Below are positions 17,103 to 35,008 of a DNA stretch of 38,077 nt, piece after piece; within the stretch, counting starts at the first letter, position 1, and each line of letters starts with the position of its first letter. The stretch comes from Candidatus Omnitrophota bacterium (GTDB lineage Bacteria > Omnitrophota > Gorgyraeia > Zapsychrales > JAHFFX01), in contig JAHFFX010000002.1 in the NCBI GenBank assembly GCA_023247755.1, positions 1 through 38,077 of the forward strand, written 5' to 3'. The translations under genes and the position numbers were made by a program. The notes below the pieces were generated by a model. It was not told the DNA's origin and made no database searches. It saw nothing but the letters and a program-made list of their open reading frames with translations.

Positions 17103-17133
17103 GGCTGCGAGGTGTCTTTCAGCGCCTTCCCAT

Positions 17134-18831: not shown

Positions 18832-18884
18832 GATTTACGCTTCGATTACTGAACCCGGCGATTTGGTCAAATGAGGAGGTCGAA

Positions 18885-19676
18885 ATGGATTGGGGAATGA
18901 AGAATCGTTTATCGCGCATCATCCGGCCGGACACGGGCAAGGCCCTGATGCTCGCCGTCGATCACGGCTATTTTCTGGGGCCCACATCGGGCCTTGAAGA
19001 CCTGGAAAATACGGTCGCGCCCCTGCTGCCTTATACCGATTCCCTGATGTTGACGCGGGGGGCGCTGCGCAATTGTATCAACGCGAAATTCCCGGTCCCC
19101 ATCGTCCTGCGGGTCTCCGGCGGCAATTCGGTCCTGGAAGAGGATCTCTCCCACGAGGACCTGACGGTCGACATCGAGGATGCGATCCGTCTTAACGCTT
19201 CCGCCATCACGATGTCCATCTACATCGGGAGTCCGCATCAGCACCAGACCATCGTGAATCTTGCGAAGACCGTGGATATGGGGGAGAAGTACGGGATCCC
19301 CGTGCTCGCGGTCACCGCCGTCGGCAAGGAAATGACGCGGGACGAGCGTTATCTGAGCCTCGCCTGCCGCATCGCGGCGGAGACGGGCGCGCATATCGTC
19401 AAGACCTATTACTGCGAAGACTTCGACAAGCTCGTCAAGAAGGTCCCCATTCCGGTCGTGATCGCGGGCGGCAAGAAGGTTACGGAAAAGGACGCATTGG
19501 AGTTGGCCTACAAAGCGATCTCCGACGGAGCGGTGGGGGTGGACATGGGGCGCAACATCTTTCAGGCCGAAGCGCCGGTGGCCATGATCCAGGCCGTGCG
19601 TTCCATCGTTCATCATGGAAATTCAGTCAAGAAGGCGCTCGATCTTTACAGCAGCCTCAAGGCGAAAAAAAAATAG
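18885..19676 (+). CDS. LsrF/DhnA-family class I aldolase (3-hydroxy-5-phosphonooxypentane-2,4-dione thiolase-like)
   Basis: GAGGAGG (18872-18878) precedes the ATG. DWGMKNRLSRIIRPDTGKALMLAVDHGYFLGPTSGLE, IVKTYY (Schiff-base Lys region), PVVIAGGKK and GVDMGRNIFQ track E. coli LsrF closely as I remember it. Confidence 0.8.
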   Translation: MDWGMKNRLSRIIRPDTGKALMLAVDHGYFLGPTSGLEDLENTVAPLLPYTDSLMLTRGALRNCINAKFPVPIVLRVSGGNSVLEEDLSHEDLTVDIEDAIRLNASAITMSIYIGSPHQHQTIVNLAKTVDMGEKYGIPVLAVTAVGKEMTRDERYLSLACRIAAETGAHIVKTYYCEDFDKLVKKVPIPVVIAGGKKVTEKDALELAYKAISDGAVGVDMGRNIFQAEAPVAMIQAVRSIVHHGNSVKKALDLYSSLKAKKK

Positions 19677-20154: not shown

Positions 20155-20165
20155 AGAGACCATTT

Positions 20166-21298: not shown

Positions 21299-21814
21299 AT
21301 GATCGAGCATGAATTATTGTTCCTGGGCCTCCTTAAGGAAGGACCCAAACATGGTTATGAGATCAAGCGTCTTATCGAGGAGGAATTGTTCCCTTTCGTG
21401 GGCCTCAAGATCAAATCCATCTATTACCCCCTCAAGAAAATGGAACGCCTGGGCCTGGTGAACAAGGATGTCGGGCGGGAGGGGAAGTGGCCGGAAAAAT
21501 TCGTTTACAGCATCACCCCCAAGGGCGAAAAGATCTTCGAACACCTCATTACCGAGAGCTTCCTTTCCATCGAACGGCCGTATTTCAACATTGACCTGTC
21601 CTTGTATTTCCTTCCGCATGTGGACAAGAAGATCGCCAGCCGCCACCTCAAGGCACGCGTCATCTTCCTTAAGCGCATTCAGAGGGACCTCGAGAACCTT
21701 GAAAAGAACATCAAATCAACCTCCCAGCACTTGAAGATCATCCTCGAACACGACCTGGCCCTGGTCACCGCGGAGATCCGCTCGATCTCCAGTCTCATTG
21801 AAACGCTTTTCTAG
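21299..21814 (+). CDS. PadR-family transcriptional regulator
   Basis: LLFLGLLKEGPKHGYEIKRLIEE...IYYPLKKMERLGLV...YSITPKGEKIFEHL. Confidence 0.9.
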   Translation: MIEHELLFLGLLKEGPKHGYEIKRLIEEELFPFVGLKIKSIYYPLKKMERLGLVNKDVGREGKWPEKFVYSITPKGEKIFEHLITESFLSIERPYFNIDLSLYFLPHVDKKIASRHLKARVIFLKRIQRDLENLEKNIKSTSQHLKIILEHDLALVTAEIRSISSLIETLF

Positions 21815-22023: not shown

Positions 22024-23538
22024 ATGAACATCCTCGAAGTCCTTCATAAAACCGCCAATCTTTATCCGCAAAAGCCGGCTCTTGTTTTTAAAGAAGAGAC
22101 CGTCAGCTTTTCCCAGCTTCATGACCGCGTTCTTAAGTTCGCCAATGGCTTAAAGAAGGAAGGGGTCGCGAAGGGGGACAAGGTCGCGATTTACCTGCCG
22201 AATTGCCCGGACTATGTTTACAGCTATCTGGCGGTATTCGGCCTGGGGGCGGTGGGGGTTCCTCTCGATTATGTGCTCAAAGCGGATGAATTGATCTCCT
22301 GCCTCGGGCATTCCGAGGCCAAGCTGTTGATCGCCCGTCCCAACCAGGAAGTGGATCTGACCGTGGTCCAGAAGGCCGTCCCGTCCCTTAAGAAGATCGT
22401 GGGAGGGGGGGAAGCCAGCGGGGGAGGGCGCCTGCTCGAAGATATCCTGAGAACGGAAAGCCCCCAACCCATTTCGCCGGCCATTGCGGGAAGCGATCCC
22501 GCGCTGATCATGTACACTTCCGGGACGACCGGCAAACCAAAGGGAATACTCCTTACCTATAAACACCTCGATGGGTCCCCTATGGCCATGAAGCATTTCG
22601 TGGACCTTTCCGAGCGGGACGTCAAACTTTGCGCTCTTCCTCTCAGCCATATCGGTGGTTTCATCTACATTCAAAACATGATCCATTACGCCACTACTCT
22701 CATCCTCATGGACCGGTTCAATCCCTTCGAGTTCCTGGGACTTATTGACCGTTTTAAAGTGACCTGTTTTCATATTGTCCCTCCCATGTACACCGCGATC
22801 CTTACTCTCAAACAGATCGAAAAGTTCGATCTTTCTTCGTTACGCTGGATGGTCGTCTTCGGCGCGCCCAGCTCGCCGGAGATCCTCGAGCGTTTTCATC
22901 GTTATTGCCCCAATGCCCGGCTCCTCAACGGCTGGGGCATGACCGAAACCTGTCCCCCCAACACGGTTACCCCCATGGATTCAGATAAGATTTCCAGCGT
23001 CGGCAAACCCGCCCCGACCTGTGAGATCAAAATATTCAACGAGCACGACCGCGAGGTCGGGATCGGTGAGATCGGCGAGATCGTCATCCGCGGCTGGGTC
23101 GTCATGGCCGGGTACTATAAGGACCCGGACAGCACTGCCGAGCTCATGCGTAACGGATGGTTCCATACGGGGGACCTGGGGCGCTTCGATGCGGAAGGGT
23201 TCCTTTACATCGTCGGCCGCAAGAAAGAGATGATCAAGGTGGGCGGACAGATTGTTTACGCTCCCGAGGTCGAATCCGCGCTTTACAAGCACGAAGCGGT
23301 GGCGGAAGCCGCCGTTATCGGTATTCCCGACGCGTTGCGCGGGGAGGCGGTGAAAGCGTTCGTGGTCCTTAAGGAATTGGCGAGCGTTTCGGTGGAGGAC
23401 CTGCGCTATTTCGCCCGCGAACACCTGGCGCACTTCAAGGTCCCGCATTCCATCGAGCTGCGGCAGTCCCTGCCCAAGAACCGCACCGGCAAGATCGATA
23501 AGGAATTATTAAAACAGGAAACGATTATTCTGAAATAA
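22024..23538 (+). CDS. AMP-dependent acyl-CoA synthetase/ligase (ANL superfamily)
   Basis: IMYTSGTTGKPKG (A3/P-loop), GWGMTE, YHTGDLG, GRKKEMIKVGG and PKNRTGKI are present. Confidence 0.92.
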   Translation: MNILEVLHKTANLYPQKPALVFKEETVSFSQLHDRVLKFANGLKKEGVAKGDKVAIYLPNCPDYVYSYLAVFGLGAVGVPLDYVLKADELISCLGHSEAKLLIARPNQEVDLTVVQKAVPSLKKIVGGGEASGGGRLLEDILRTESPQPISPAIAGSDPALIMYTSGTTGKPKGILLTYKHLDGSPMAMKHFVDLSERDVKLCALPLSHIGGFIYIQNMIHYATTLILMDRFNPFEFLGLIDRFKVTCFHIVPPMYTAILTLKQIEKFDLSSLRWMVVFGAPSSPEILERFHRYCPNARLLNGWGMTETCPPNTVTPMDSDKISSVGKPAPTCEIKIFNEHDREVGIGEIGEIVIRGWVVMAGYYKDPDSTAELMRNGWFHTGDLGRFDAEGFLYIVGRKKEMIKVGGQIVYAPEVESALYKHEAVAEAAVIGIPDALRGEAVKAFVVLKELASVSVEDLRYFAREHLAHFKVPHSIELRQSLPKNRTGKIDKELLKQETIILK

Positions 23539-23593: not shown

Positions 23594-24358
23594 ATGCAAA
23601 ACAAGACCCAAAGAATGACCCGCCCGATCCACATGACCGGGCAGGACCTCACCGGCATGGTGCAGCTGCGCCCGACCGACATCGGCAAGTACGCGATCGT
23701 TCCGGGGCCCAAGGAGCGGCTGGACAATCTCGTCAAGAAGATGGAGAACCCTATCAAGAACTTCACTTTCATGGAATACAACATGTATACCGGAACTTAT
23801 CAGGGGATCAAGATCACCGGTGTCAACGGGGGGCGCTTCTCGGCGGACACCGCGATCACCACGGAACTCCTGTGCAGCGCCAAGGCGCAGAACATGATCC
23901 GCATCGGCAGTTGCGGCGCCCTTTCCGATGAGATCAACATCGGCGATATCGTCGTCGTCGATGGGGCGGTGCGCGGCGATGGCGTCACGCCATATTACGT
24001 CAATCAGGACTTCAAGACCGTCACCGATAAGAAGCTCACCGACATGGTCTTTGAGATCGCCGGCAAGACCGGGCACAAGGTTCACCGCGGCAAGGTGTGG
24101 ACCACGGACGCGATCCTGCGCGAGACCGACGAATACGTCAACGGCGCCATCGACCAGGGCGCGATCGCCGTGGACATGGTGTCGTCGGTGTTCTTGACGC
24201 TCTGCCAGCTTTATGAGATCCCGGCGACCGTGATCCTGGCGGTCTCCGATAACATCATCACCGGGGAGATGGGATTCCTTTCGCCGAATTATTACATGGC
24301 GGAGAGTTCTTTGGTCACGATCGCGCTGAATCTGGTGAAGAAGCTCGAAGGAAAGTAA
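23594..24358 (+). CDS. PNP/UDP-family nucleoside phosphorylase (uridine-phosphorylase-like; substrate unknown, possibly 5'-deoxyadenosine/MTA)
   Basis: IRIGSCGAL, GDIVVVDGAVRGDG and AVDMVSS are present, laid out like hexameric Udp/PNP enzymes. Confidence 0.8.
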   Translation: MQNKTQRMTRPIHMTGQDLTGMVQLRPTDIGKYAIVPGPKERLDNLVKKMENPIKNFTFMEYNMYTGTYQGIKITGVNGGRFSADTAITTELLCSAKAQNMIRIGSCGALSDEINIGDIVVVDGAVRGDGVTPYYVNQDFKTVTDKKLTDMVFEIAGKTGHKVHRGKVWTTDAILRETDEYVNGAIDQGAIAVDMVSSVFLTLCQLYEIPATVILAVSDNIITGEMGFLSPNYYMAESSLVTIALNLVKKLEGK

Positions 24359-24362
24359 ATAG

Positions 24363-24430
24363 GGTCACCCGTCACCAGTCACAGGTCACCACAAAATTAC
24401 TTGGTGACTTGTGACGTGTGACATGTGACT
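24363..24430. repeat. heptad-periodic inverted repeat element E1
   Basis: GTCAC occurs at 24364, 24371, 24378 and 24385. GTGAC occurs at 24404, 24411, 24418 and 24425. The arms pair as 14 bp + 5 bp + 6 bp, separated by 2x2 mismatches, around a 10-nt loop (24392-24401). Confidence 0.85.
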
Positions 24431-24451
24431 ATGTAGATTTAATGGTGAAAA

Positions 24452-25426
24452 ATGAAAGAATCCCCGCTTTTCTGGCCCGCGCAATTCAAAGGGAACGTGC
24501 TTCACGTTCTCGATGAGACGCAGGTCCCGGAGAAATTACATTATGTGAAGGTCCGCAACGTCAAGGAAGCGGTGAAGGTCATCCGGAACATGAAGACCCG
24601 GGCCTTCGGGCAGTTCCTGGTCGTGCTGAGCACCTTTCTTTTGGTGTTGAAGAACTCGAAGGTTCGCACCCCGACGGCGCTGCTTTCCGAACTGGAACAA
24701 ACGGCGGAAGCGCTCAACACGAGCCGCCCCACGTTCCCTTTCCGGGAAGTGACGTCGATCGTGGTCGCCTGGGCGAAGGACGCGATCCAAAAGAACATCG
24801 AGCTGCGTCCGTTCCTTGAGAAGAACATCCAGGGTTATTTGATGGGGATCCGTCAGCGGCGCCTGCAGCGGGTCAACGAGATCGCGGAGCTTTTGCGGGA
24901 CGGCGACCGCGTCCTCACGCATTGCAACGTGAGCGGCGAGCTTGCCATGGCCTCGCAGATCGCGCGCGAGCAGCGCAAGTTCGTGCAGTTCTTCGCGACC
25001 GAAACGCGCCCTTATTTTCAAGGGGCGAAACTGACCTGCTGGGAATTGCAGAAGGCCGGCACGCCGGTGACCCTGATCGCCGATAACGCCGTGGGGACCG
25101 TCCTCGCGGACGGATTGGTGGATAAGGTGATCGTTGGGTCCGACCGCTCCTGCGCCAACGGCGACATCGCCAACAAGATCGGGACCTATCAGATCGCGGT
25201 GCTGGCGAAGGAATTCGGGACACCTTTTTACGTTCTTACCCAGCCGTCCAACAAGATCCCGCGGGGGGAAGACATCCCCATCGAGGTCCGCAATCCCGAA
25301 GAGCTTTTGACGTTCGGGAAAAAGCGGATCGTCGCGGGCAAAGTGAACGCCTTCTATCCCGGCTTCGATGTGACGCCGAAGGAATTGATCGAAAGGGAGA
25401 TCGCCATCAATGCACAATCTCGTTAA
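24452..25426 (+). CDS. eIF-2B alpha/beta/delta-family sugar-phosphate isomerase (MtnA-like, divergent)
   Basis: LTHCNVSG (catalytic Cys context), ETRPYFQGAKLTCWEL, VIVGSDRSCANGDIANKIGTY and FYVLTQ are present. The N-terminal region diverges from canonical MtnA (MKTRAFGQF instead of M.VRGAPAIG). Confidence 0.8.
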   Translation: MKESPLFWPAQFKGNVLHVLDETQVPEKLHYVKVRNVKEAVKVIRNMKTRAFGQFLVVLSTFLLVLKNSKVRTPTALLSELEQTAEALNTSRPTFPFREVTSIVVAWAKDAIQKNIELRPFLEKNIQGYLMGIRQRRLQRVNEIAELLRDGDRVLTHCNVSGELAMASQIAREQRKFVQFFATETRPYFQGAKLTCWELQKAGTPVTLIADNAVGTVLADGLVDKVIVGSDRSCANGDIANKIGTYQIAVLAKEFGTPFYVLTQPSNKIPRGEDIPIEVRNPEELLTFGKKRIVAGKVNAFYPGFDVTPKELIEREIAINAQSR

Positions 25427-25925
25427 GCCGGTCGTCATCGTTCAGGGAGTGGTGGAGGCCCGGCTCTTTGATGAATTAAAGGGAAAAGGGGTTACGGAAG
25501 TTTATGTCCTGGAAGGCCGTCCCACGCTCGAGGCGGCGCGGCGCGCCAGCGCGGAGCTTCTTAAGCGCGGCATGACGCCGACGCTCATTTCGGACAACAT
25601 GGCCGGCGTGCTTTTTTACAAGAATCTGGTGAAGGAAGTCTGGATCGCTTTCCAATACGCCGATGAGGAAGGAGCGGCCTGTGACATCGGCGCGCTCATC
25701 CTGGGCGTTCTGGGAAAGCGGCACGGCGTTCCCGTGCGGCTATTTCCGTCGGCGCGGAAAACGAATTTCCTGGGCCGTTCGCAGGACCTCCTCAGTTTCC
25801 TTTCGAAACGCATCGCCCCCAAGGGCGTGGAGGCGTTCGTGCCCCTGGTGGAATGGGTGCCGGCGAAATATATTTCCGCAGTTCCGAAACCCCTGGCCGA
25901 AGATCTGCAGGACGCTCACGTATGA
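25410..25925 (+). CDS. stand-alone half-length eIF-2B/MtnA-like protein (C-terminal Rossmann-like domain only, catalytic motifs absent)
   Basis: The ATG lies 10 nt after AAGGGAG (25393-25399) and overlaps the upstream gene by 17 nt. VYVLEGRPTLEAARRASAELLKRGMTPTLISDNMAG...GALILGVLGKRHGVPV parallels the ETRP...G.P.TLI.D.A...NKIGTY...A..H..P segment. Confidence 0.6.
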   Translation: MHNLVKPVVIVQGVVEARLFDELKGKGVTEVYVLEGRPTLEAARRASAELLKRGMTPTLISDNMAGVLFYKNLVKEVWIAFQYADEEGAACDIGALILGVLGKRHGVPVRLFPSARKTNFLGRSQDLLSFLSKRIAPKGVEAFVPLVEWVPAKYISAVPKPLAEDLQDAHV

Positions 25926-26950
25926 ATGAAGGAATCGCAAAATTAAAGACCGACATCATTGCCATCGGGCGCCTTTTGTGGGACAAGGACCTGGCGAGCG
26001 GGCTTAACGGCAATTTAAGCGCCCGGGTGAGCAACGACGAGATCCTTTTGACCGCGACCCACACCTGCCTGGGGCTGCTGAAGGACAACGACATTTTGCA
26101 TATGAAGCTGGATGGAACGCTTCTTGAGAAGGGAAGCGTATCCACCGAGAAACTTCTGCACACTGAGATCTACAAGAACTTTCCGGACGTGAGCGCGGTC
26201 GTCCATACCCACACGACCTTCACCAACGCTTATTTCCTGGCGAACGACAAGTTCTCCCCGACCACCTATGAAGCGAAATTCTACATCGGGGAAGTGCAGG
26301 GGATCCCCCAGAAAACGCCGTCGGTGACCGACGCGGGGCCGGTCGTTGAGGAACTGAAGCGCAACAGCATCACCGTCCTTAAGAATCACGGGGTCGTCGC
26401 GATGGGCAAGGACCTGTTCGATGGTTTCCTGCTGATCCAGCAGCTTGAGGAATCGATCAAGGTGGACGCGATCAGCCGGTTGTACCAGGTGAATGCCTCG
26501 GGTGCCCAGCGCCCAGCGCCCAGCGTGCAGCCCGCAATGCATAGCGCTCAACCGTCTTCCTTCGGGAACGGGAAGAAATTCAAGCTGTTTTCAAAGGAGC
26601 AGATCGAAGAGATCGTGCGAATCGTGAACGCCGATGCGCAACTGAAGGAATTGGGCGAGAAGACCAAGATGACGATGGACCTGGCGGTGCAGCTCAACGA
26701 AACGGGGGAGACCTACAGTTTCAGTTTCCAGAACGGCCGCATCGCCAAGATCGGCAACGATACCCAGGCGGAATTCCTGATCACTGCTCCTGAAACGGTC
26801 TGGCGCGCGGTGTTCAACCGCCAGATCGATCCGTTCGTCGCGACGACGCAAAAGAAGATGAACCTGCGCGGGGATTTCGCGAAGATTTCGAAATGGTATT
26901 CGCCCTGCAGCCGCATCTTTGAACTTTGGGCCCAGGTGCCGGTGGAATAA
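25922..26950 (+). CDS. class II aldolase/adducin-family protein (MtnB/FucA/Ald2-like) fused to a C-terminal SCP2 sterol-carrier-like domain
   Basis: There is an ATGA overlap with the upstream stop. GLNGNLSARV, STEKLLHTEIY, VVHTHT and LKNHGVVAMG (Zn His ligand positions) are present. A linker ...GAQRPAPSVQPAMHSAQPSSFGNGKK is followed by ~105 aa that read SCP2-like (...DLAVQLNETGETYSFSFQNG...KKMNLRGDFAKISKW). Confidence 0.75.
   Translation: MNEGIAKLKTDIIAIGRLLWDKDLASGLNGNLSARVSNDEILLTATHTCLGLLKDNDILHMKLDGTLLEKGSVSTEKLLHTEIYKNFPDVSAVVHTHTTFTNAYFLANDKFSPTTYEAKFYIGEVQGIPQKTPSVTDAGPVVEELKRNSITVLKNHGVVAMGKDLFDGFLLIQQLEESIKVDAISRLYQVNASGAQRPAPSVQPAMHSAQPSSFGNGKKFKLFSKEQIEEIVRIVNADAQLKELGEKTKMTMDLAVQLNETGETYSFSFQNGRIAKIGNDTQAEFLITAPETVWRAVFNRQIDPFVATTQKKMNLRGDFAKISKWYSPCSRIFELWAQVPVE
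26504..26531 (+). repeat. tandem heptanucleotide repeat (GCCCAGC)x3 + GTGCAGC inside the aldolase-SCP2 linker
   Basis: The units start at 26504, 26511, 26518 and 26525, as read directly from the sequence. Confidence 0.9.
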
Positions 26951-28449
26951 TGCCAACGACCGTTAACATCGAAGAATACCGGATGCTCATCGATGGCCGG
27001 CTAACGCCGGCCCGGGAGCGACGCTCGTTCGAGAGCGTGAATCCTTCCACGGGGGACGTGTTCGCCAGGGTCTCCGATGCCGCAATCGAGGATGTCCAGG
27101 CAGCCATCGCGGCGGCGCGCCGCGCGTTCGACGAAGGGCGCTGGCCGGGTCTCACCTTGGCCCAGCGCGGGAAATTTCTCAAGACGATCGCCGATCTTAT
27201 CCGTGAGAACGCCAAGGAATTGGCCGAGCTCGAGACCTTGAGCACCGGAAAAACGCTCAAGCAGACGACCTTCATCGATGTGCCGACCTGCGCCGATACG
27301 TTTGAATATTTTGGAAGTATTCCCGATCTTTTAAGATCAAGGGAAAACCCGGTGAACGCGCCGGTCAAGAGCCTGACCGAACGCGAGCCGCGCGGGGTGG
27401 TGGCCTGTATCATTCCCTGGAACTATCCTTTGATCATGGCGGCCTGGAAGCTGGCGCCGGCGCTGGCCGCCGGGAATACCGTTATCCTGAAACCTTCGCG
27501 TTTGGGGAGCGTTTCGATCCTCAAGCTCGCGTCCCTTATAGAGAAAGCCGGGTTGCCGGCGGGCGTGGTGAATGTGGTCGCGACGACGCAGGAAGCTGCG
27601 GCCACGGCCCTGGTCAAAAGCCCGCAGGTCGACATGGTGAGCTTCACCGGCGGCACCGCTACCGGCCAGAAGATCATGGCCTGGGCGGCGGAGACGACGA
27701 AGAAGGTCTCGCTCGAGCTCGGGGGCAAATCCCCGAACCTCGTTTTCGCGGATTGCGATTTTGAGGCGGCGTTGGGGGGAACGATGTCGGCCATCTTCAT
27801 GAACCAGGGACAGATGTGCACGGCGGGGGCGCGGCTCTTGCTGGAAGACAAGATCTACGACCGCTTCCTCGAAGAACTGGTCAAGCGGACCAAGGCGCTT
27901 AAGATCGGCAACGCGTTCAACCATGAGACCGAATTCGGCCCGCTGGTGAGCCTTGAACAGCGCAACGGTGTTCTCAAGTTTATAGAGAAGGGCAAGTCGG
28001 AGGGGGCGAAAATTGCGACCGGCGGGCGAATTCCGCCGGGGGCGGAATTCGCCCGGGGGGCGTTCCTCGAACCCACCATCTTTACCGACGTTCGTCCGGA
28101 GATGTTCATCGCCCAAGAAGAGGCGTTCGGCCCGGTCCTTGCCGTATTCAAGTTCTCCGGTGAAGAAGAAGCCGTGCGGCTCGCCAACGATTCAAAGTAC
28201 GGGCTCGCCGCCTGCGTCTGGACCAAAGATGAAGAGAAGGCCCGAAGAATTTCGAAAAAACTGCAGTGCGGCACGGTTTGGGTGAACACCTATGGAGGGT
28301 TCTACAACGAGGCGTCCTTCGGCGGCACCAAGCAGAGCGGTTTCGGCCGCGAGCTCGGTATCGAGGGACTTTTAGAATATACACAGACGAAGCATGTTTG
28401 TATCGACCGCACGCCCGGGGGGAAACCCCTGGCCGCGGCCTGGTTCTGA
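26950..28449 (+). CDS. NAD(P)+-dependent aldehyde dehydrogenase
   Basis: The ATG overlaps the upstream TAA (TAATG). WNYPL, ELGGKSP, FMNQGQMCTAGARL (catalytic Cys) and EEAFGPV are present. Confidence 0.93.
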   Translation: MPTTVNIEEYRMLIDGRLTPARERRSFESVNPSTGDVFARVSDAAIEDVQAAIAAARRAFDEGRWPGLTLAQRGKFLKTIADLIRENAKELAELETLSTGKTLKQTTFIDVPTCADTFEYFGSIPDLLRSRENPVNAPVKSLTEREPRGVVACIIPWNYPLIMAAWKLAPALAAGNTVILKPSRLGSVSILKLASLIEKAGLPAGVVNVVATTQEAAATALVKSPQVDMVSFTGGTATGQKIMAWAAETTKKVSLELGGKSPNLVFADCDFEAALGGTMSAIFMNQGQMCTAGARLLLEDKIYDRFLEELVKRTKALKIGNAFNHETEFGPLVSLEQRNGVLKFIEKGKSEGAKIATGGRIPPGAEFARGAFLEPTIFTDVRPEMFIAQEEAFGPVLAVFKFSGEEEAVRLANDSKYGLAACVWTKDEEKARRISKKLQCGTVWVNTYGGFYNEASFGGTKQSGFGRELGIEGLLEYTQTKHVCIDRTPGGKPLAAAWF

Positions 28450-28544: not shown

Positions 28545-30026
28545 ATGAAAATACTATTCTTAACGCCACCGTTAAAAGCCTGGGATTCGCACGGGTTCCA
28601 CCGCGCCGCCAACCAAATGCACGCGCAGGTCGCCGCCTACGTCCGTTCCAAGGGCCTCGCGACGATCGAAGCGCTCGACTGCCGGGCGATGGACTACGAC
28701 TGGAACACCATGATGCAGAAGATCGACGAGAGCAAGCCCGACATGGTGTTTCTGGGCGATCAGCTGTTCTCGACGCTGGGGGCGGCGGTCATCTGGTATT
28801 TCAACGAAGCGATGCGGATGATCAAGGAGAAGTACCCGAACATCATCACGGTGGCCTCGGGACTGTGGTATTCCGCCGATTACGAGCGGCAGATGCGCTT
28901 GAATCCGTTCATCGATTACATCCTCATCGGCGAAGGGGAACTGACACTTGAGGACCTCCTGACCAACCTCAAGACCAAGGCCAAGAACGAACGGGATATT
29001 CCGGGTCTCGTTTCCCGCCGGGACAAGACGTCGATCGTGATCGGTCCCCACCGCGGGCTTATTCCGGACCTCAACGTTCTTCCCATGCCGGCCTACGAAC
29101 TCTTTCCGATGGAAAAATATGTCGGGCACACCTATTGGAAACCGTTCGCGGAACTGATGACCTCGCGCGGCTGCCCCGGCAAATGCCATTTCTGCTACGA
29201 GTGGGCGCTGTATGACAACCGCACCGCGACCCAGGATTTCACCTCCTGGAGAGGATTGTCCGGCAAACGGATCGTGGATGAACTCGATCTTCTGGAAAAA
29301 AAGTACGGCATCACCTGCGTGGTCATGCAGGATGACGCTTTCAACAGCGACACCAAGGCCATGATCGAATTCTGCGAAGAAAAGATCAAAAGAGGCAACC
29401 AGATCGGGTGGGTCTGCCTTGGCCGCGCCGATCAGTGGATCGCCCAGCAGGATATCCTTCCCCTGATGAGAAAGGCCGGACTTTTCATGGCCCTTACCGG
29501 CGTCGAGGTCGAGGACGATAAGACGCTTACCAAAACGGGGAAAGGGGTCACGATCGACCAGATCAAGCAGACCATCAACCTTCTGCGGGCCCAGGACATC
29601 GGGACCGTCGGCACGGTCCTGATCGGTTTGCGGGAGGACAACGAGGAAAAGATCAAGAAGCGCCTCGAGACCGCCGATGAGATCGACCCCGATGTTTTTG
29701 CGCTGGATTATCTCACGCCGGTCCCCAATTCGCCGGACTGGCGCTATGGGATCCAAAAGGGATGGTTCGATCCGGATAAGATCAATCTCAAGGACTGGGA
29801 CTTCCAGCATCCGGTCATCCCGACGGACAATCTGACCGTTGAGGAAGTGGGCCGCCTGGGCGCGTGGTGCATGCGGGAGTATTATTCGAAGCCGGAGCGC
29901 ATTCACCGCATCATGGAAAGCAATTACGACATCCGGGTCAAACAGTGCGTCATGGACTTCATGAACAACATCTCCAAATGGGAGAAGAACTCCCGCACGC
30001 CGGCTGCCACCGGGGCGGCGGTTTAA
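28545..30026 (+). CDS. B12-binding-domain radical SAM enzyme (class B)
   Basis: The N-terminal flavodoxin-like cobalamin-binding region is MKILFLTPP...PDMVFLG. The CxxxCxxC cluster motif reads TSRGCPGKCHFCYE. Confidence 0.88.
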   Translation: MKILFLTPPLKAWDSHGFHRAANQMHAQVAAYVRSKGLATIEALDCRAMDYDWNTMMQKIDESKPDMVFLGDQLFSTLGAAVIWYFNEAMRMIKEKYPNIITVASGLWYSADYERQMRLNPFIDYILIGEGELTLEDLLTNLKTKAKNERDIPGLVSRRDKTSIVIGPHRGLIPDLNVLPMPAYELFPMEKYVGHTYWKPFAELMTSRGCPGKCHFCYEWALYDNRTATQDFTSWRGLSGKRIVDELDLLEKKYGITCVVMQDDAFNSDTKAMIEFCEEKIKRGNQIGWVCLGRADQWIAQQDILPLMRKAGLFMALTGVEVEDDKTLTKTGKGVTIDQIKQTINLLRAQDIGTVGTVLIGLREDNEEKIKKRLETADEIDPDVFALDYLTPVPNSPDWRYGIQKGWFDPDKINLKDWDFQHPVIPTDNLTVEEVGRLGAWCMREYYSKPERIHRIMESNYDIRVKQCVMDFMNNISKWEKNSRTPAATGAAV

Positions 30027-30099: not shown

Positions 30100-30115
30100 C
30101 AAAGGAACTACGAGA

Positions 30116-30450: not shown

Positions 30451-30915
30451 ATGGAAAAAACCAATCATCATTTTGTTTTCATCGAGGCCCCGGTGGACAT
30501 CGTGGGCCCGCAGATCATTGCCTGGGGGGAGGCTTCCTGGTGGCCCGAAGGTTCCCAAATGCGTTTTAATAAGACCACCTCCGGGGAATTGGGGATCGGC
30601 ACGGAATATGAGATGCGGATCAAGGCCCCGTTCGTGTCACCCTTGTCCTGCCGGGTCACGAAACTGGACCCCGCCCGGGAGATCGAACGCACGTTCCTCA
30701 CCGGTATGTTCAAGGGGCGCGAGATTGTCAGCGCCGAGGAACGGTATAACGGAACGAAAGTGAAATATACCATGTATTACCAGGTCCAAGGAATCCTTAA
30801 CGCGATCTTGTGGCCGATCCTCTTTCGTCGTTTGCACGATGCGAACATCGAGCTGATCATGGCGGCCCTCAAGCGATATTGCGAACAAAAGGCCAATCCT
30901 CCGGAGGGGACATGA
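30451..30915 (+). CDS. SRPBCC-superfamily protein (polyketide cyclase/dehydrase-like START fold)
   Basis: It starts at the ATG at 30451 (MEKTNHHFVFIEAPVDIV...). Length and pattern (I.AP...V, W.P, G.G, GT.V.Y...) are typical of Polyketide_cyc2-type proteins. Confidence 0.6.
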   Translation: MEKTNHHFVFIEAPVDIVGPQIIAWGEASWWPEGSQMRFNKTTSGELGIGTEYEMRIKAPFVSPLSCRVTKLDPAREIERTFLTGMFKGREIVSAEERYNGTKVKYTMYYQVQGILNAILWPILFRRLHDANIELIMAALKRYCEQKANPPEGT

Positions 30916-31925
30916 ACATCGCGGTCATCGGCGCGGGGGCGATCGGCTCGGTCGTAGCCAGCTATCTGACGAAGGCGGGAGTGTCGGTCACCCTCATCGG
31001 CCGGCCGGACCAGGTCACGGCGATCCGCAAGAGCGGTCTGCATGTGATGGGTGTGCGGGGGGAGGAAACGTTCCAGTTCCCCGCCCTGATGAAACTGGAC
31101 AAGGCCTATGATGTCGTTATCTTTACCGTCAAGACTCAGGACCTCGAATCGGCCTATCTGGAGAACCAGGACCATCTGGAGTCGGGGTTCATCCTTACCA
31201 CGCAGAATGGCGTTCAGGCCGATAATGTCCTCAGCAGCCACTTCGAGCGGGATAAATTGATCAGCAGCATCGTGATGTTCGGGGCGACCTACGTGCGCCC
31301 CGGGGAAGTGACCTTCAATTTTGAGGGCGACTGGATCATCGGCAAACCCTATTTTCCCAACGATCCCTTCGTGCATGAGCTGGCGGGAGTCCTGCAAAAA
31401 GCTTTCAAGGTCAACGTCTCCAATGACATCATGGGAATGAAATGGCTCAAGCTCTTCATCAATTTCAACAACTGTATCCCGGCGCTGCTGGGAAAGTCCA
31501 TGCAGGAGACGTTCGCGGACCTGGACTTTTGCCGCCTGAGCATGCTGCTTCTTAAGGAAGGCATCGAGGTGACGCGCAAGGCGGGGGTGAAGCTGGTTTC
31601 GCTGCCGCAGTTCCCGGTGGAGCGCATCGATGGACTTTCGGCGATGCCCGTTGAGCAGGGGGCGGCGATCGTCAATAAGACCCTGACGGGGTTGAGCAAG
31701 GAGCCGCTGTACGGTTCCATCCTGCAGAGCATCATGAGAAAGAAGACCAGCGAGATCGATTTCATCAACGGGGAAGTGGCCCACCTGGCGCAGGCGATGG
31801 GTCTGTCGGCGCCCCTCAACCGCAAGATCGTGGACCTCGTGCACGAGGTGGAGCGGGAGGGGAAGTTCTTCTCGCGGGATGAAGTGAAGAGGAAATTTAG
31901 TTTGAGTTCGCCTGGTGACCGGTGA
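30912..31925 (+). CDS. ApbA/PanE-family NAD(P)H-dependent 2-oxoacid/ketone reductase (ketopantoate-reductase-like)
   Basis: There is an ATGA overlap with the SRPBCC stop. MNIAVIGAGAIGSVVASYL, VKTQDL and EIDFINGEVAHLAQAMGLSAPLN are present. Confidence 0.85.
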   Translation: MNIAVIGAGAIGSVVASYLTKAGVSVTLIGRPDQVTAIRKSGLHVMGVRGEETFQFPALMKLDKAYDVVIFTVKTQDLESAYLENQDHLESGFILTTQNGVQADNVLSSHFERDKLISSIVMFGATYVRPGEVTFNFEGDWIIGKPYFPNDPFVHELAGVLQKAFKVNVSNDIMGMKWLKLFINFNNCIPALLGKSMQETFADLDFCRLSMLLLKEGIEVTRKAGVKLVSLPQFPVERIDGLSAMPVEQGAAIVNKTLTGLSKEPLYGSILQSIMRKKTSEIDFINGEVAHLAQAMGLSAPLNRKIVDLVHEVEREGKFFSRDEVKRKFSLSSPGDR

Positions 31926-31998
31926 CCAGTCACAAGTCACCAGGGGTTTCCCTGCAATTCAATTAACCGGTAACCGGTGACGTGGTCACTGGTCACAT
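31911..31998. repeat. heptad element E3 (two adjacent self-complementary arrays), overlapping the 3' end of the reductase gene
   Basis: Array a has GTGAC, GTGAC, GTCAC, GTCAC at 31915, 31922, 31929 and 31936, within CCTGGTGAC...GTCACCAGG. Array b has GTAAC, GTGAC, GTCAC, GTCAC at 31970, 31977, 31985 and 31992. Confidence 0.8.
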
Positions 31999-32014
31999 AT
32001 AAGGAAATCAAGCA

Positions 32015-33277
32015 ATGAAAACCAAACGACGCGTCGTAGTGACCGGGGTCGGCATCGTTTCCCCCAACGGGGTCGGGGCCGAGGCCTGCTACCGCAATAT
32101 GATCAACGGTGTGTCCGCCGTCAAAAGGGTGACCGAGTTCGACGTGTCGCTTTTTAACACCAAGATCGCGGCCCAGGTGCGGGATTTCGATCCATGGAAG
32201 CTGGGCCTCACCAGCGAAGAGATCGTGCGCATGGACCGCTACGTCCAGTTCGCGATGGTCGCCGCGCGCATGGCGATCGAGGATTCCAGATTGAACTTAA
32301 GCCAGGTGGACCGGGAGCGCACGGGCGTTTCGCTCGCCAACGCCATCTGCGGCACCAAATATATGGAAGAGGAGTTCGCGCTGGTGACCGACAGCGGCAA
32401 GAACCCGATCGACCCTTCGATCGTGCGTCCGGACCTGTATGATGCCTCCATGTTCAACACGCCCTCGAGCGAGATCTCGGCCAAGTACGGTCTGCTGGGA
32501 GTTTGCAATACGATCTCCACGGGCTGCACCGCCGGGACCGATTCCGTCGGGTTTTCCTATGAAGCCATTGCGGATGGGGAAGCTGATATCATGGTGACCG
32601 GAGCGGCAGAGGCGCCCATCACGCCGATCACCTTTGGCGCTTTCGATACCGTGAACGTCCTGTCGGTGCACAACGAATTTCCGGAAAAGGCTTCAAGGCC
32701 TTTCGACGCCCGTCGTAACGGGTTCGTGATTTCCGAGGGCGCAGGAATTATAGTGGTAGAAGAGCTCAATCACGCCCTCAAGCGCGGCGCCAGGATCTAT
32801 TGCGAAGTGACCGGCTTCGGCACGACGAATAATGCCTTTCACATGACCGACCTGCCCCCCGATGGGGACGCGATGGCGGATTGCATCAACCTTGCCATGC
32901 GGGATGCGGACCTCAAGCCCAGTGAACTCGATTACGTCAACGCGCACGGCTCTTCCACCCGCCAGAACGATGTGTTCGAGACCAGCGCCTACAAGATGGC
33001 GCTGGGAGAATACGCCTACAAGATCCCGATCAGTTCGGTGAAATCCATGATCGGGCATCCGCTGGCCGGGGCGAACGGCATCGAGATCGCTTTAAGCTCG
33101 ATGATCTTTGAGCGCAATATCTTGCCGCCAACGATCAACCAGGAAGAGAAGGACCCCCAATGCGATCTGGATTACATCCCCAACACGGCGCGGGAGAAGA
33201 AGGTGAATTCGATCCTCAAGACGAGCTCGGGATTCTCGGGGATTCATTCGGCTATGGTTTTAGAACGATTTAAATGA
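32015..33277 (+). CDS. beta-ketoacyl synthase, type II PKS KS-alpha-like
   Basis: AAGGAAA precedes the ATG. The active-site context ISTGCTAGTDSVG (Cys codon 32525-32527) resembles the PKS KS-alpha motif STGCTSGLD more than FabF. NAHGSST and SMIGHPLAGANG supply the two catalytic His residues. Confidence 0.88.
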   Translation: MKTKRRVVVTGVGIVSPNGVGAEACYRNMINGVSAVKRVTEFDVSLFNTKIAAQVRDFDPWKLGLTSEEIVRMDRYVQFAMVAARMAIEDSRLNLSQVDRERTGVSLANAICGTKYMEEEFALVTDSGKNPIDPSIVRPDLYDASMFNTPSSEISAKYGLLGVCNTISTGCTAGTDSVGFSYEAIADGEADIMVTGAAEAPITPITFGAFDTVNVLSVHNEFPEKASRPFDARRNGFVISEGAGIIVVEELNHALKRGARIYCEVTGFGTTNNAFHMTDLPPDGDAMADCINLAMRDADLKPSELDYVNAHGSSTRQNDVFETSAYKMALGEYAYKIPISSVKSMIGHPLAGANGIEIALSSMIFERNILPPTINQEEKDPQCDLDYIPNTAREKKVNSILKTSSGFSGIHSAMVLERFK

Positions 33278-33282
33278 TCATT

Positions 33283-33346
33283 GGTGATTCGTGCCTCGTG
33301 GCACGTCAACAAATCACGTGTCACGAGGCACGGAGCACGATACACA
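33283..33346. repeat. heptad-periodic inverted repeat element E4
   Basis: GGTG, CGTG, CGTG, CGTC occur at 33283, 33290, 33297 and 33304. CAC occurs at 33315, 33322, 33329, 33336 and 33343. The 17-bp stem 33290-33306/33316-33332 has a single G-T (G-U) pair and a 9-nt loop. Confidence 0.85.
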
Positions 33347-33365
33347 AATCAGGATTGGAGAAGTT

Positions 33366-34598: not shown

Positions 34599-34659
34599 AA
34601 AGCGTCCCTTAACCCTGCAAGGGGAAAGGGACGCCGTTCTCGTGTTGCAGAAAAGTTAG
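34599..34659 (+). repeat. degenerate tandem copy of the last ~60 nt of the KS-beta gene (non-coding relic)
   Basis: 34632-34659 (cgccgttctcgtgttgcagaaaagttag, reading A V L V L Q K S *) matches 34571-34598 (cgccgtcctggtgctacaaaagaattaa, reading A V L V L Q K N *). TTAACC at 34609 corresponds to 34546. The region contains the hairpin GCGTCCCTT (34602-10) / AAGGGACGC (34626-34). Confidence 0.7.
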
Positions 34660-34665
34660 CTAAGG

Positions 34666-34707
34666 GTCGACAGCCCACTGTCGTCGGTCGACCGTGGTCC
34701 ATGGACT
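34666..34707. repeat. heptad-periodic element E5 (variant motif)
   Basis: GTCGAC-a, GCCCAC-t, GTCGTC-g, GTCGAC-c, GTGGTC-c, ATGGAC-t start at 34666, 34673, 34680, 34687, 34694 and 34701. It contains the small hairpin CGACAG ccca CTGTCG and the palindrome GTCCATGGAC. Confidence 0.6.
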
Positions 34708-34738
34708 CAATGAGAATCAAACCATAGGAGGTTTACTC

Positions 34739-34996: not shown

Positions 34997-35008
34997 CAAG
35001 GATTTAGC

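What the first reader, a model, noticed from the sequence alone, without database searches (positions are those of the whole stretch)
23594..28449. DHAP-shunt-like 5'-deoxynucleoside salvage set encoded immediately upstream of a radical SAM enzyme
In the described DHAP shunt, a phosphorylase, an MtnA-family isomerase and a class II aldolase convert 5'-deoxyadenosine or methylthioadenosine into DHAP plus acetaldehyde or 2-(methylthio)acetaldehyde. 5-deoxyribose disposal follows the same logic.

Here that trio is followed by an aldehyde dehydrogenase instead of the reductase usually invoked. It is then followed by a radical SAM gene, whose turnover produces 5'-deoxyadenosine.

The phosphorylase reads as Udp-like rather than MtnP-like, and the isomerase N-terminus is divergent. 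The real substrate may therefore differ.
Basis: partly seen in the sequence, partly recalled or inferred. Interest (0 to 1): 0.6.

Follow-up and report, generated by a model that had tools for sequence, protein, structure and literature searches.

The report
Extended DHAP-shunt module in polyketide operon
Four adjacent genes that resemble a known route for breaking down the nucleoside waste of SAM-using enzymes are real, but with a ligase, a lipid-binding domain and a dead extra isomerase subunit they form a distinct, uncharacterised variant that is a fixed part of a radical-SAM/polyketide gene cluster in uncultured Omnitrophota bacteria.

Summary
23594-28449 encodes, co-directionally and tightly packed, a PNP/UDP-family phosphorylase, an MtnA-family isomerase, a class II aldolase and an aldehyde dehydrogenase. 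A B12-binding radical SAM gene follows.

- a catalytically dead half-isomerase gene (25410-25925);
- an SCP2 lipid-carrier domain fused to the aldolase;
- a FadD-type acyl-CoA ligase just upstream (22024-23538), which is an orthologous part of the module in three lineages.

The genome has a canonical MTAP and a canonical MtnA elsewhere, so the cluster copies are deep paralogs. The isomerase forms its own clade apart from MtnA and DrdI, and it is not a ribose-1,5-bisphosphate isomerase.

The gene order PadR-ligase-phosphorylase-isomerase-(half)-aldolase/SCP2-ALDH-rSAM-...-KS-CLF-ACP-cyclase recurs in about 65 Omnitrophota loci. The aldolase fusion is in 91 of 301 sampled genomes. A sister operon in another lineage has neither rSAM, PKS nor ALDH.

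Best reading (0.45): a cluster-dedicated, extended DHAP shunt that turns a SAM-derived 5'-deoxy purine nucleoside into DHAP plus an acyl thioester. The main rival (0.25) is a feeder of a larger acyl unit to the PKS. The SCP2 domain and the ligase type remain unexplained.

The scan has reported this module before on many other Omnitrophota genomes.

The parts
22024..23538 (+). Acyl-CoA (or acyl-ACP) ligase, FadD-like; part of the module
   Evidence: It has AMP-binding plus AMP-binding_C domains. PRK06187 (long-chain ligase) scores 461 bits against a cut-off of 476. The nearest solved structures are FadD5, long-chain and feruloyl ligases. The motif GWGMTE puts Gly where acetyl-CoA synthetase has its pocket-closing Trp (the Trp residue role is from my own knowledge). 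Orthologs at 37% identity over the full length follow the aldolase in L102, L101 and L090.
23594..24358 (+). Divergent hexameric-type (NP-I) purine nucleoside phosphorylase (PNP*)
   Evidence: Pfam PNP_UDP_1. All NCBIfam equivalogs score far under their cut-offs. Arg42, Arg103 and Met195 are invariant; Ser106 and Asp219 (VSDN) are nearly invariant (90% or more). These are the phosphate site and the purine N7 acid. The ribose motif EME is an invariant DMV within the Omnitrophota orthologs; in distant relatives the third position varies and P0132 keeps Glu. The residue aligned to the 5'-OH-binding His is Met22, although an invariant His13 lies 9 residues upstream. Only 23 representatives at 50% identity reach E<=1e-30.
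24452..25426 (+). MtnA-family aldose-ketose isomerase of a separate subfamily (ISO*)
   Evidence: TIGR00512 scores 220 bits (cut-off 279). TIGR00524 scores 197 (cut-off 186). The R15P isomerase model TIGR00511 scores 138 (cut-off 314). Cys158, Asp231, Arg50 and Arg92 are invariant. It is 37% identical to the genome's own MtnA. It falls in a clade with the fused forms of other lineages, split 97/99 from the group holding MtnA and DrdI.
25410..25925 (+). Catalytically dead half-isomerase (C-terminal IF-2B domain only), probable partner of ISO*
   Evidence: Pfam IF-2B profile positions 132-271 only, with no catalytic Cys or Asp. It is conserved in 56 loci. It is fused to the isomerase as a single 441-513 aa protein in L090, L101 and L102. 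The predicted ISO*-half complex scores ipSAE 0.93 against a best control of 0.00. That mark was reached by 58 of 80 solved complexes and 2 of 110 mismatched pairs. The runs agree in at least 97% of contacts and the partner pLDDT is at least 87. The interface mimics the known MtnA/eIF2B dimer, so the pass may rest on likeness to solved structures.
25922..26950 (+). Class II (FucA/DrdA-type) aldolase fused through a disordered linker to an SCP2 lipid-carrier domain
   Evidence: Aldolase_II covers residues 11-181 and SCP2 residues 254-324 of the 342-aa protein (renumbered to the 25922 start). Asn31, Glu76, His95, His97 and His156 are invariant. The AF2 model has pLDDT 86 with the linker 191-216 disordered. 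Foldseek top matches are FucA and YgbL, with DrdA at rank 22. The SCP2 fold gives TM 0.87. It is the only class II aldolase found in the 91%-complete genome. The fusion is kept in the sister lineage at 35% identity over the full length.
26950..28449 (+). NAD(P)-dependent, non-acylating aldehyde dehydrogenase
   Evidence: Pfam Aldedh E 1e-172. The BADH model scores 572 bits (cut-off 668) and StyD phenylacetaldehyde dehydrogenase 487. The catalytic Cys (GQMCTAG) and Glu (LELGGKSP) are invariant. The likely start is ATG 26950, overlapping the aldolase stop, with GGTGGA upstream. The gene is absent from the sister operon.
28545..30026 (+). B12-binding (class B) radical SAM enzyme, BchE/HpnJ-like, function unknown
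   Evidence: B12-binding plus Radical_SAM domains. BchE scores 179 bits and HpnJ 129, far under their cut-offs. The only weak PDB relatives are AprD4, TokK and CysS. Orthologs at 37% identity sit directly before PNP* in L084 and L090. The genome has about 18 other radical SAM genes, four of them with B12 domains, none next to such a module.
21299..21814 (+). PadR-family regulator heading the block
   Evidence: Pfam PadR. It is conserved upstream of the ligase in 35 loci.
30810..35812 (+). Context: PanE/ApbA reductase, KS, dead CLF partner, ACP, PF04199 cyclase
   Evidence: Pfam assignments. The CLF has Arg at the Cys/Gln site, and Asp and Asn at the two His sites. Synteny with the module holds in all loci long enough to show it.
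16056..19676 (+). Associated unit (uncertain): Zn-dependent dehydrogenase (16056-17102), membrane protein, LsrF-type thiolase (18885-19676)
   Evidence: The LsrF equivalog NF006081 scores 417 bits against a cut-off of 297. In families f18, f26 and f36 the thiolase and the Zn-dehydrogenase lie inside the module, between the aldolase and ALDH or right after ALDH. The trio also exists in module-free families.

Best explanation
The four genes, together with the upstream ligase and the overlooked half-isomerase, encode a specialised, extended DHAP-shunt-type route.

Proposed steps:
1. PNP* phosphorolyses a SAM-derived 5'-deoxy purine nucleoside. The simplest candidate is the 5'-deoxyadenosine released by the adjacent B12-radical SAM enzyme. 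Methylthioadenosine is the other candidate.
2. The ISO*/dead-half heterodimer converts the 5-deoxypentose-1-phosphate to the ketose-1-phosphate.
3. The aldolase cleaves it to DHAP plus an aldehyde.
4. ALDH oxidises the aldehyde to the acid.
5. The ligase re-activates the acid as a CoA or ACP thioester.

This is not the cell's housekeeping salvage, since MTAP and MtnA are encoded elsewhere. It is a module co-inherited with the radical SAM/type II PKS-like operon.

Shown: the family assignments, the intact catalytic residues, the operon packing, the paralogy and the synteny. Inferred: the order of steps, the direction, the substrate, and whether the thioester is merely recovered carbon or is used by the KS/CLF-ACP system.
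For: - Families and catalytic residues are intact.
- Genes overlap or abut.
- The order is conserved in about 60 loci, and the aldolase fusion is present in 91 of 301 sampled Omnitrophota genomes.
- The module stays in the PKS-like cluster after rearrangement.
- An orthologous B12-rSAM directly precedes PNP* in distant L084 and L090.
- The ligase is an orthologous member of the module in three lineages.
- This is the only class II aldolase found in the genome.
- The purine-type Asp and two phosphate Arg are kept in PNP*.
- An equivalog-level LsrF-type thiolase plus a Zn-dehydrogenase are repeatedly inserted inside the module. By the established LsrF reaction (3-hydroxy-5-phosphonooxypentane-2,4-dione + CoA -> DHAP + acetyl-CoA), the C4-oxidised form of 5-deoxyribulose-1-phosphate is constitutionally the LsrF substrate. 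This fits a 5-deoxypentulose-1-phosphate intermediate, but it is inference.
Against: - The SCP2 lipid-carrier domain is the most conserved part of the aldolase protein and is kept across phyla. A C2 or C3 aldehyde gives no reason for it.
- The ligase is FadD-like, with Gly where acetyl-CoA synthetase has Trp.
- A canonical MTAP and MtnA already exist and are near-universal in the phylum: 257 of 301 genomes carry MtnA. Duplicating the first two steps therefore suggests a different substrate.
- About 18 other radical SAM genes have no such neighbour.
- The sister operon (MarR, Fe-S/CCG protein, PNP*, fused ISO*, aldolase-SCP2, ligase) has no rSAM, PKS or ALDH.
- PNP* departs from the family at the ribose motif (EME to DMV) and at the position aligned to the 5'-OH-binding His.
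- There are no biochemical or expression data.
Confidence: 0.45

Rival explanations
1. Biosynthetic feeder. The nucleoside carries a larger, probably hydrophobic 5' substituent X. The module converts it to X-CH2-COOH. The FadD-type ligase loads this acid as the starter, or another building block, for the KS/CLF-ACP system. This is the logic of the fluoroacetate route and of SAM-derived chloroethylmalonyl-CoA.
For: - The SCP2 fusion is conserved, and elsewhere SCP2 is fused to lipid enzymes such as wax-ester synthase, fatty acyl reductase and alkylsulfatase.
- The ligase is FadD-like with an open-pocket Gly.
- PNP* and ISO* are deep paralogs beside the housekeeping MTAP and MtnA.
- In Omnitrophota the module was seen only inside the PKS-like cluster, even after rearrangement.
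- The CLF lacks Gln (it has Arg) and the cluster has no KSIII or acyltransferase.
- The position aligned to the 5'-OH-binding His is Met.
Against: - No enzyme that would make such a nucleoside was identified. There is no fluorinase/chlorinase family gene in the 91%-complete genome.
- Class B radical SAM enzymes are not known to adenosylate substrates (my own knowledge).
- The sister operon works without KS, ACP or rSAM.
- A KS with a dead partner may self-prime by decarboxylating malonyl-ACP. This argument comes from an earlier check of the scan (e1-1079181) and was not tested here.
- The inserted LsrF-type thiolase fits a methyl-terminated C5 sugar phosphate.
Confidence: 0.25
2. Plain housekeeping salvage. 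The set is the organism's general DHAP shunt for all 5'-deoxyadenosine and MTA, and lies next to a radical SAM gene by coincidence.
For: - It holds the only class II aldolase found in the genome.
- No MtnN was found, because the genome has only two PNP_UDP_1 genes.
- The enzyme order is that of the DHAP shunt.
Against: - Canonical MtnA is present in 257 of 301 genomes, but the aldolase fusion in only 91, clade by clade and always with the cluster. The housekeeping enzymes therefore do not depend on it.
- The extra features (SCP2, dead subunit, ligase) and the strict synteny with rSAM and PKS genes speak against coincidence.
Confidence: 0.07
3. Ordinary purine nucleoside catabolism. Adenosine or inosine goes to ribose-1-phosphate, then ribulose-1-phosphate, then DHAP plus glycolaldehyde, then glycolate and its CoA ester.
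For: - The phosphorylase is of DeoD/Udp type with the purine Asp.
- There is a weak match to the haloarchaeal ribulose-1-phosphate aldolase model, 53 bits against a cut-off of 300.
- The sister operon carries a GlcF/GlpC-like Fe-S protein.
Against: - The residue aligned to the 5'-OH-binding His is an invariant Met, and the ribose motif is altered.
- The isomerase is nearer to MtnA than to any sugar-phosphate isomerase of nucleoside catabolism.
- The links to rSAM and SCP2 are left unexplained.
Confidence: 0.07
4. Not a cleavage pathway. The class II aldolase-family protein acts as a dehydratase, decarboxylase or epimerase (as MtnB, YgbL/OtnC or AraD do). The set then builds or reshapes a modified sugar phosphate or nucleoside for the cluster's product.
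For: - NCBIfam scores are ambiguous: methanogen-type FucA 107 bits, 3-oxo-tetronate-4-phosphate decarboxylase 99, MtnB 62, all under their cut-offs.
- Foldseek ranks YgbL and aq_1979 beside FucA.
- An LsrF-type thiolase directly follows the 'aldolase' in some genomes. That is odd if the sugar phosphate has already been cleaved.
Against: - ALDH follows in Omnitrophota, and the ligase belongs to the module in all lineages examined. Both need an aldehyde or acid product.
- The metal triad, Glu and the phosphate-binding Asn are those of FucA-type aldolases.
Confidence: 0.1

Closest known systems
DHAP shunt (MtnP or MtnN+MtnK, MtnA, Ald2) of Rhodospirillum, Rhodopseudomonas and ExPEC E. coli (PMC10986504, PMC12632272)
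   Same: The order is the same: nucleoside cleavage, aldose-1-phosphate to ketose-1-phosphate isomerisation by an IF-2B/MtnA-family enzyme, then class II aldolase cleavage to DHAP plus an aldehyde.
   Different: - The phosphorylase is a divergent hexameric DeoD/Udp-type enzyme, not MtnP.
- The isomerase is a separate clade with a dead partner subunit.
- The aldolase is fused to SCP2.
- The aldehyde is oxidised and re-activated by a dedicated ALDH and a FadD-type ligase, not reduced.
- The set is embedded in a rSAM/PKS-like operon.
5-deoxyribose disposal DrdK-DrdI-DrdA of Bacillus thuringiensis (PMC6079011)
   Same: An MtnA-like isomerase and a FucA-like aldolase act on 5-deoxy sugar phosphates made from the radical SAM by-product.
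   Different: - Entry here is by a phosphorylase, not a kinase.
- ISO* is split 97/99 from a clade holding a B. thuringiensis DrdI ortholog.
- The aldolase domain is only 25% identical to the DrdA ortholog.
Fluoroacetate pathway of Streptomyces cattleya (fluorinase, PNP FlB, MtnA-type isomerase, fuculose-type aldolase, fluoroacetaldehyde dehydrogenase), reviewed in PMC9516700; PMC7408626 supports only recruitment of the MtnA-type isomerase. The other enzyme names are from my own knowledge.
   Same: The order is the same, including the aldehyde dehydrogenase step that yields X-CH2-COOH from a 5'-X-5'-deoxyadenosine.
   Different: - No SAM halogenase/hydroxide adenosyltransferase family gene (PF01887) was found in the genome.
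- The phosphorylase is of a different type.
- A ligase and an SCP2 domain are added.
SAM-derived chloroethylmalonyl-CoA for salinosporamide (SalL route; PMC9516700)
   Same: This is a precedent for the ribose of SAM being trimmed into an acyl-CoA building block for a polyketide synthase.
   Different: It begins with a chlorinase, which is absent here.
LsrF, 3-hydroxy-5-phosphonooxypentane-2,4-dione thiolase of AI-2 processing
   Same: It gives DHAP plus acetyl-CoA from a methyl-terminated C5 keto-sugar phosphate. An equivalog-level homolog with a Zn-dehydrogenase is inserted in the module in several families.
   Different: No link between LsrF-type enzymes and 5-deoxyribulose-1-phosphate was found in the searched literature. 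Its role here is inference.

Membership tests
DHAP shunt / Drd-type 5'-deoxynucleoside salvage | Nucleoside phosphorylase or nucleosidase acting on 5'-deoxy or 5'-thio purine nucleosides | tested here: inconclusive
   It is a PNP_UDP_1 member with phosphate Arg42 and Arg103 and the purine Asp219 kept. It is not MtnP or MtnN. The ribose motif and the position aligned to the 5'-OH-binding His are altered. Substrate is not testable by sequence.
DHAP shunt / Drd-type 5'-deoxynucleoside salvage | MtnA/DrdI-type isomerase with catalytic Cys and Asp | tested here: inconclusive
   Cys158 and Asp231 are invariant. However, scores lie below the MtnA equivalog cut-offs (220 against 279), and the protein is in a clade split 97/99 from MtnA and DrdI.
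DHAP shunt / Drd-type 5'-deoxynucleoside salvage | Class II aldolase with metal-binding His triad, catalytic Glu and phosphate-binding Asn | tested here: met
   Asn31, Glu76, His95, His97 and His156 are invariant in 21 orthologs. The fold matches FucA and DrdA.
DHAP shunt / Drd-type 5'-deoxynucleoside salvage | Cleavage of 5-deoxy- or 5-methylthio-ribulose-1-phosphate to DHAP plus aldehyde | not testable with these tools
   This needs enzyme assays.
S-methyl-5'-thioadenosine phosphorylase (MtnP, TIGR01694) | Score over the equivalog cut-off | tested here: not met
   TIGR01694 is not among the 16 NCBIfam matches of PNP* at E<=0.001. The genome's true MTAP is on contig C184, scoring 315 bits against a cut-off of 275.
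Uridine phosphorylase (TIGR01718) | Score over the cut-off and the uracil-binding Gln/Arg pair | tested here: not met
   The score is 98 bits against a cut-off of 280. The region aligned to the uracil-binding Gln/Arg stretch reads LRET, and the purine-type SD motif is present. The residue roles are from my own knowledge.
Ribose-1,5-bisphosphate isomerase (TIGR00511) | Score over the equivalog cut-off | tested here: not met
   The score is 138.5 bits against a cut-off of 314.1. PDB R15P isomerases score 104-109 bits, against 145-163 for the bacterial and archaeal MtnA-type structures (1t9k, 6a34, 1t5o, 2yrf). None reached E<=1e-75 in 201 Omnitrophota genomes. No tree with R15P isomerase references could be built.
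Fluorometabolite-type pathway | SAM-dependent halogenase (SAM_HAT, PF01887) | tested here: not met
   No match was found in the 91%-complete genome.
SCP2 lipid-carrier domain | Pfam match over the cut-off and SCP2 fold | tested here: met
   Scores are 23.7 and 26.1 bits against a cut-off of 21.3. TM is 0.87/0.82 to SCP2 clusters. The model's helix and strand order does not conflict with an SCP2 fold.

The most novel reading that the evidence does not exclude
The radical SAM enzyme, or another enzyme in lineages that lack it, joins the 5'-deoxyadenosyl group to a hydrophobic acceptor, as HpnH and MqnE do in hopanoid and futalosine pathways. The module then trims the adduct. Adenine and C1'-C3' leave as DHAP. 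C4'-C5' stay on the acceptor as a two-carbon extension ending in an aldehyde, then an acid, then a thioester. This would be a SAM-driven C2 homologation feeding a polyketide or lipid pathway. The SCP2 domain would hold the lipid tail, and the half-dead isomerase dimer would make room for it.
Probability: 0.1. Interest if true: 0.85.

Novelty: new variant of a known kind. Interest (0 to 1): 0.5.

Why it matters
Radical SAM enzymes are ubiquitous and their by-product 5'-deoxyadenosine is inhibitory. Known disposal routes end at DHAP plus a small aldehyde.

This module is conserved in about a third of the sampled Omnitrophota, with a sister form in another lineage. It carries the route on to a thioester and adds a lipid-carrier domain and a pseudo-heterodimeric isomerase.

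If it only recycles the by-product, it shows a new, complete carbon-recovery version of the shunt tied to one biosynthetic operon. If it feeds the polyketide synthase, it would be a new way of making an acyl building block from the ribose of SAM.

In both cases it gives testable functions to six genes of a cluster whose product is unknown, in a phylum with no cultured model organism.

Tried and rejected
- **Fluorinase/chlorinase family (PF01887):** none in the genome, so a halogenated nucleoside is unlikely.
- **SAH as the orphan substrate:** SAH hydrolase is present, so SAH is not an orphan.
- **R15P isomerase reading:** rejected on profile scores.
- **More distant PNP* relatives:** L083, L086-L089 and L103-L105 gave unrelated or uninformative contexts such as peptide transporters, or an aminotransferase with a small aldolase and RlmN.
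- **Tree artefact:** the Lactobacillus isomerase row had an implausibly long branch and was ignored.
- **Foldseek on the whole aldolase model:** it reported only the aldolase domain. The SCP2 domain was confirmed through the Atlas instead.
- **Sequencing runs:** no RNA holder is listed. The only holder is a groundwater metagenome that may be the source of the window, so no reads were laid.
- **Literature:** searches found no paper on this cluster, and none linking LsrF to 5-deoxyribulose-1-phosphate.
- **Correlation of the LsrF-type thiolase with the module across the phylum:** there is none. It is present in 12 of 15 genomes of family f7, which lacks the module, and absent from f2 and f24, which have it.

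Full report
**What is there.**
On the + strand the window carries a tightly packed block:
- PadR regulator (21299-21814)
- acyl-CoA ligase (22024-23538)
- PNP/UDP-family phosphorylase (23594-24358)
- IF-2B/MtnA-family isomerase (24452-25426)
- a 171-aa protein made only of the C-terminal IF-2B domain (25410-25925)
- class II aldolase with a C-terminal SCP2 domain (25922-26950)
- aldehyde dehydrogenase (26950 or 26926-28449)
- B12-binding radical SAM enzyme (28545-30026)
- two small unknown proteins
- PanE/ApbA reductase
- KS, a dead CLF partner, ACP and a PF04199 cyclase (to 35812)

Junctions overlap. The isomerase and half-isomerase overlap by 17 nt, with a GGGAG box upstream. The half-isomerase and aldolase share ATGA. 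The aldolase and ALDH share TAATG, with GGTGGA upstream.

**The enzymes look functional.**
- Isomerase: it keeps the THCN cysteine and the GSDR aspartate, plus the two N-terminal arginines that I recall as the phosphate ligands of B. subtilis MtnA (the role is from memory). All are invariant in 22 orthologs.
- Aldolase: Asn31, Glu76, His95, His97 and His156 are invariant. These are the FucA-type phosphate, base and metal residues.
- ALDH: it has the catalytic Cys and Glu.
- Phosphorylase: Arg42, Arg103 and Ser106, which I read as the phosphate site (roles from my own knowledge), and the purine-type Asp219 are invariant or nearly so, even in distant relatives.

**The phosphorylase departs from the family.**
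- The ribose-binding EME motif is an invariant DMV in the Omnitrophota orthologs.
- The inter-subunit Arg is missing.
- The residue aligned to the His that binds the 5'-OH in DeoD and Udp is an invariant Met, although an invariant His lies nine residues upstream.
- 'Udp-like' is thus only half right. Udp and DeoD models score alike, far below their cut-offs, and the base pocket reads as purine.

**The cluster copies are paralogs, not the housekeeping set.**
- The same 91%-complete genome has a canonical MtnA (443 bits on TIGR00512, cut-off 279) and a canonical MTAP (315 bits, cut-off 275) on other contigs.
- Canonical MtnA is present in 257 of 301 sampled Omnitrophota genomes, including families with no aldolase. 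Module-bearing genomes mostly show two MtnA-model matches, against one in the others.
- The cluster isomerase is 37% identical to the genome's own MtnA.
- In a maximum-likelihood tree, the cluster isomerases of all lineages form one clade. It is split 97/99 from the clade holding Omnitrophota MtnA and a B. thuringiensis DrdI ortholog from a drdK-drdI-drdA cluster.
- It is not a ribose-1,5-bisphosphate isomerase by profile score (138 against 314).
- The aldolase is the only class II aldolase found in the genome. No fluorinase-type gene is present. SAH hydrolase is present.

**The half-isomerase is a real gene.**
- It is conserved in 56 loci.
- It lacks both catalytic residues.
- In other lineages it is fused to the isomerase as one 441-513 aa protein.
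- A complex prediction gave ipSAE 0.93 against a best control of 0.00. That mark was reached by 58 of 80 solved complexes and 2 of 110 mismatched pairs. The runs agreed in at least 97% of contacts and the partner pLDDT was at least 87.
- The interface is that of the known MtnA/eIF2B dimer, so the pass may reflect likeness to solved structures. The gene fusion is the independent support.

**The SCP2 domain is real.**
- Pfam scores lie over the cut-off.
- The AF2 model has pLDDT 86 with a disordered linker.
- TM is 0.87/0.82 to SCP2 clusters.
- In the conservation profiles it is at least as conserved as the aldolase domain, with a long near-invariant stretch near the C-terminus.
- Elsewhere SCP2 is fused to wax-ester synthases, fatty acyl reductases and alkylsulfatases.

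**Conservation within Omnitrophota.**
- The aldolase-SCP2 protein recovered 65 loci, by record title nearly all Omnitrophota or 'uncultured Planctomycetales' MAGs.
- The order PadR-ligase-phosphorylase-isomerase-half-aldolase-ALDH-rSAM-small-PanE-KS-CLF-ACP-cyclase holds wherever the contig is long enough.
- The fusion is in 91 of 301 sampled genomes, distributed clade by clade.
- In more distant families the order changes but the module stays in the cluster. There it sits with an SRPBCC polyketide cyclase, a cupin, a ketoreductase and an MFS exporter, and it lacks the half-isomerase.

**Conservation outside this group.**
- L084 shows rSAM-rSAM-phosphorylase-isomerase.
- L090 shows LolA-like-rSAM-phosphorylase-fused isomerase-aldolase-ligase.
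- A third lineage has MarR, an Fe-S/CCG protein, the phosphorylase (45% identity), the fused isomerase, the aldolase-SCP2 (35% identity over the full length) and the ligase (37%). It has no radical SAM, PKS or ALDH gene nearby. The Atlas labels the second-nearest isomerase cluster, of about 511 aa like these fused forms, as mostly Binatota; that these contigs belong to it is not verified.
- The conserved core is therefore phosphorylase, isomerase (plus half), aldolase-SCP2 and ligase.

**A further associated unit.**
- The DeoC-family gene at 18885-19676 is an equivalog-level LsrF-type thiolase (417 bits, cut-off 297). It lies with a Zn-dependent dehydrogenase at 16056-17102.
- In families f18, f26 and f36 this pair lies inside the module, between the aldolase and ALDH or right after ALDH.
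- Across the phylum the thiolase does not track the module, and it occurs with the dehydrogenase in module-free genomes.
- By the established LsrF reaction, the C4-oxidised form of 5-deoxyribulose-1-phosphate has the constitution of the LsrF substrate. A dehydrogenase-thiolase pair could therefore give DHAP plus acetyl-CoA directly. This is inference, and I found no paper on it.

**Reading.**
The simplest account that fits most facts is a cluster-dedicated, extended DHAP shunt. A SAM-derived 5'-deoxy purine nucleoside goes to DHAP plus an aldehyde, then an acid, then a thioester. The likely substrate is the 5'-deoxyadenosine of the neighbouring class B radical SAM enzyme, or possibly MTA. I give this 0.45.

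Against it stand five points:
- the conserved SCP2 domain;
- the FadD-type ligase, with Gly where acetyl-CoA synthetase has its pocket-closing Trp;
- the duplication of steps that MTAP and MtnA could perform;
- the roughly 18 other radical SAM genes without such a neighbour;
- the sister operon without rSAM.

These points favour a larger 5' substituent and a feeder role for the PKS (0.25). The CLF of this PKS has Arg in place of Gln.

An earlier check within this scan (e1-1079181) priced the feeder reading at 10 in 100. Its grounds were that a KS may self-prime, that the plain acid would be acetate, and that a sister set exists without KS. I confirmed the last point.

**Comparison with known systems.**
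- The route works like the DHAP shunt (PMC10986504, PMC12632272) and the Drd pathway (PMC6079011).
- With the ALDH step it has the enzyme order of the fluoroacetate route (order from my own knowledge; reviewed in PMC9516700).
- SAM ribose feeding a polyketide extender unit is in print for salinosporamide (PMC9516700).
- It is not a member of the MtnP, Udp, MtnA-equivalog or R15P-isomerase families by their own cut-offs.
- I class it as a new variant of a known kind.
- The scan has reported the same module on many other Omnitrophota genomes.

Noticed in passing
window 16056-19676; L114 10560-12376; L115 10582-12409; L116 7458-9280; L075 6625-8472: An equivalog-level LsrF-type thiolase (417 bits, cut-off 297) and a Zn-dependent dehydrogenase are repeatedly placed inside or beside the module. 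C4-oxidised 5-deoxyribulose-1-phosphate would have the constitution of the LsrF substrate. This suggests an undescribed dehydrogenase-thiolase exit giving DHAP plus acetyl-CoA. The thiolase is in 99 of 301 Omnitrophota genomes and does not track the module.
   Followed up: partly
genome contigs C118 and C184 (L001, L004); phylum survey: Canonical MtnA is near-universal in Omnitrophota (257 of 301 genomes). In G000 the module's aldolase is the only class II aldolase found, and no relative of it at E<=1e-20 was found in 210 of the 301 genomes. What these bacteria do with the MtnA product is therefore open. The LsrF-type thiolase is a candidate.
   Followed up: partly
L101 3533-9552; L102 8015-14891: The sister operon in another lineage (Atlas label Binatota, unverified) runs MarR, a Fer4_8+CCG Fe-S protein (GlcF/GlpC-like), phosphorylase, fused isomerase, aldolase-SCP2 and ligase. 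In L102 a phosphopantetheinyl transferase follows. There is no rSAM, ALDH or PKS gene.
   Followed up: partly
window 33291-34598: The KS partner (CLF) has Arg at the Cys/Gln position, and Asp and Asn at the two His positions. It is catalytically dead and lacks the decarboxylating Gln of actinobacterial CLFs.
   Followed up: partly
window 24359-24451 and other intercistronic gaps: The 93-nt gap between the phosphorylase and the isomerase was noted by other readers to hold a long inverted repeat of 7-nt periodic units. I did not examine it.
   Followed up: no
window about 26490-26570 (aldolase-SCP2 linker): The inter-domain linker (residues 191-216) is disordered in the model and is the only unconserved part of the protein. 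Other readers noted a tandem heptanucleotide there.
   Followed up: no
L077 about 9989-10580; L082 about 10036-10600: Genomes of one genus (g8) have a stand-alone class II aldolase of about 200 aa without SCP2. It is 39-45% identical to the module's aldolase and lies next to homologs of the unknown genes at window 19615-20600.
   Followed up: no
L089 3204-6965; L104 4057-7783: More distant relatives of the phosphorylase (36-43% identity) sit with a class IV aminotransferase. In L089 a small class II aldolase and RlmN follow. This may be a different nucleoside-processing set.
   Followed up: no
window 30050-30915: Two small proteins follow the radical SAM gene. The first has marginal DUF2621 and PCP_red-like matches and is conserved in 39 loci. 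The second is conserved in 16 loci. Their function is unknown.
   Followed up: no
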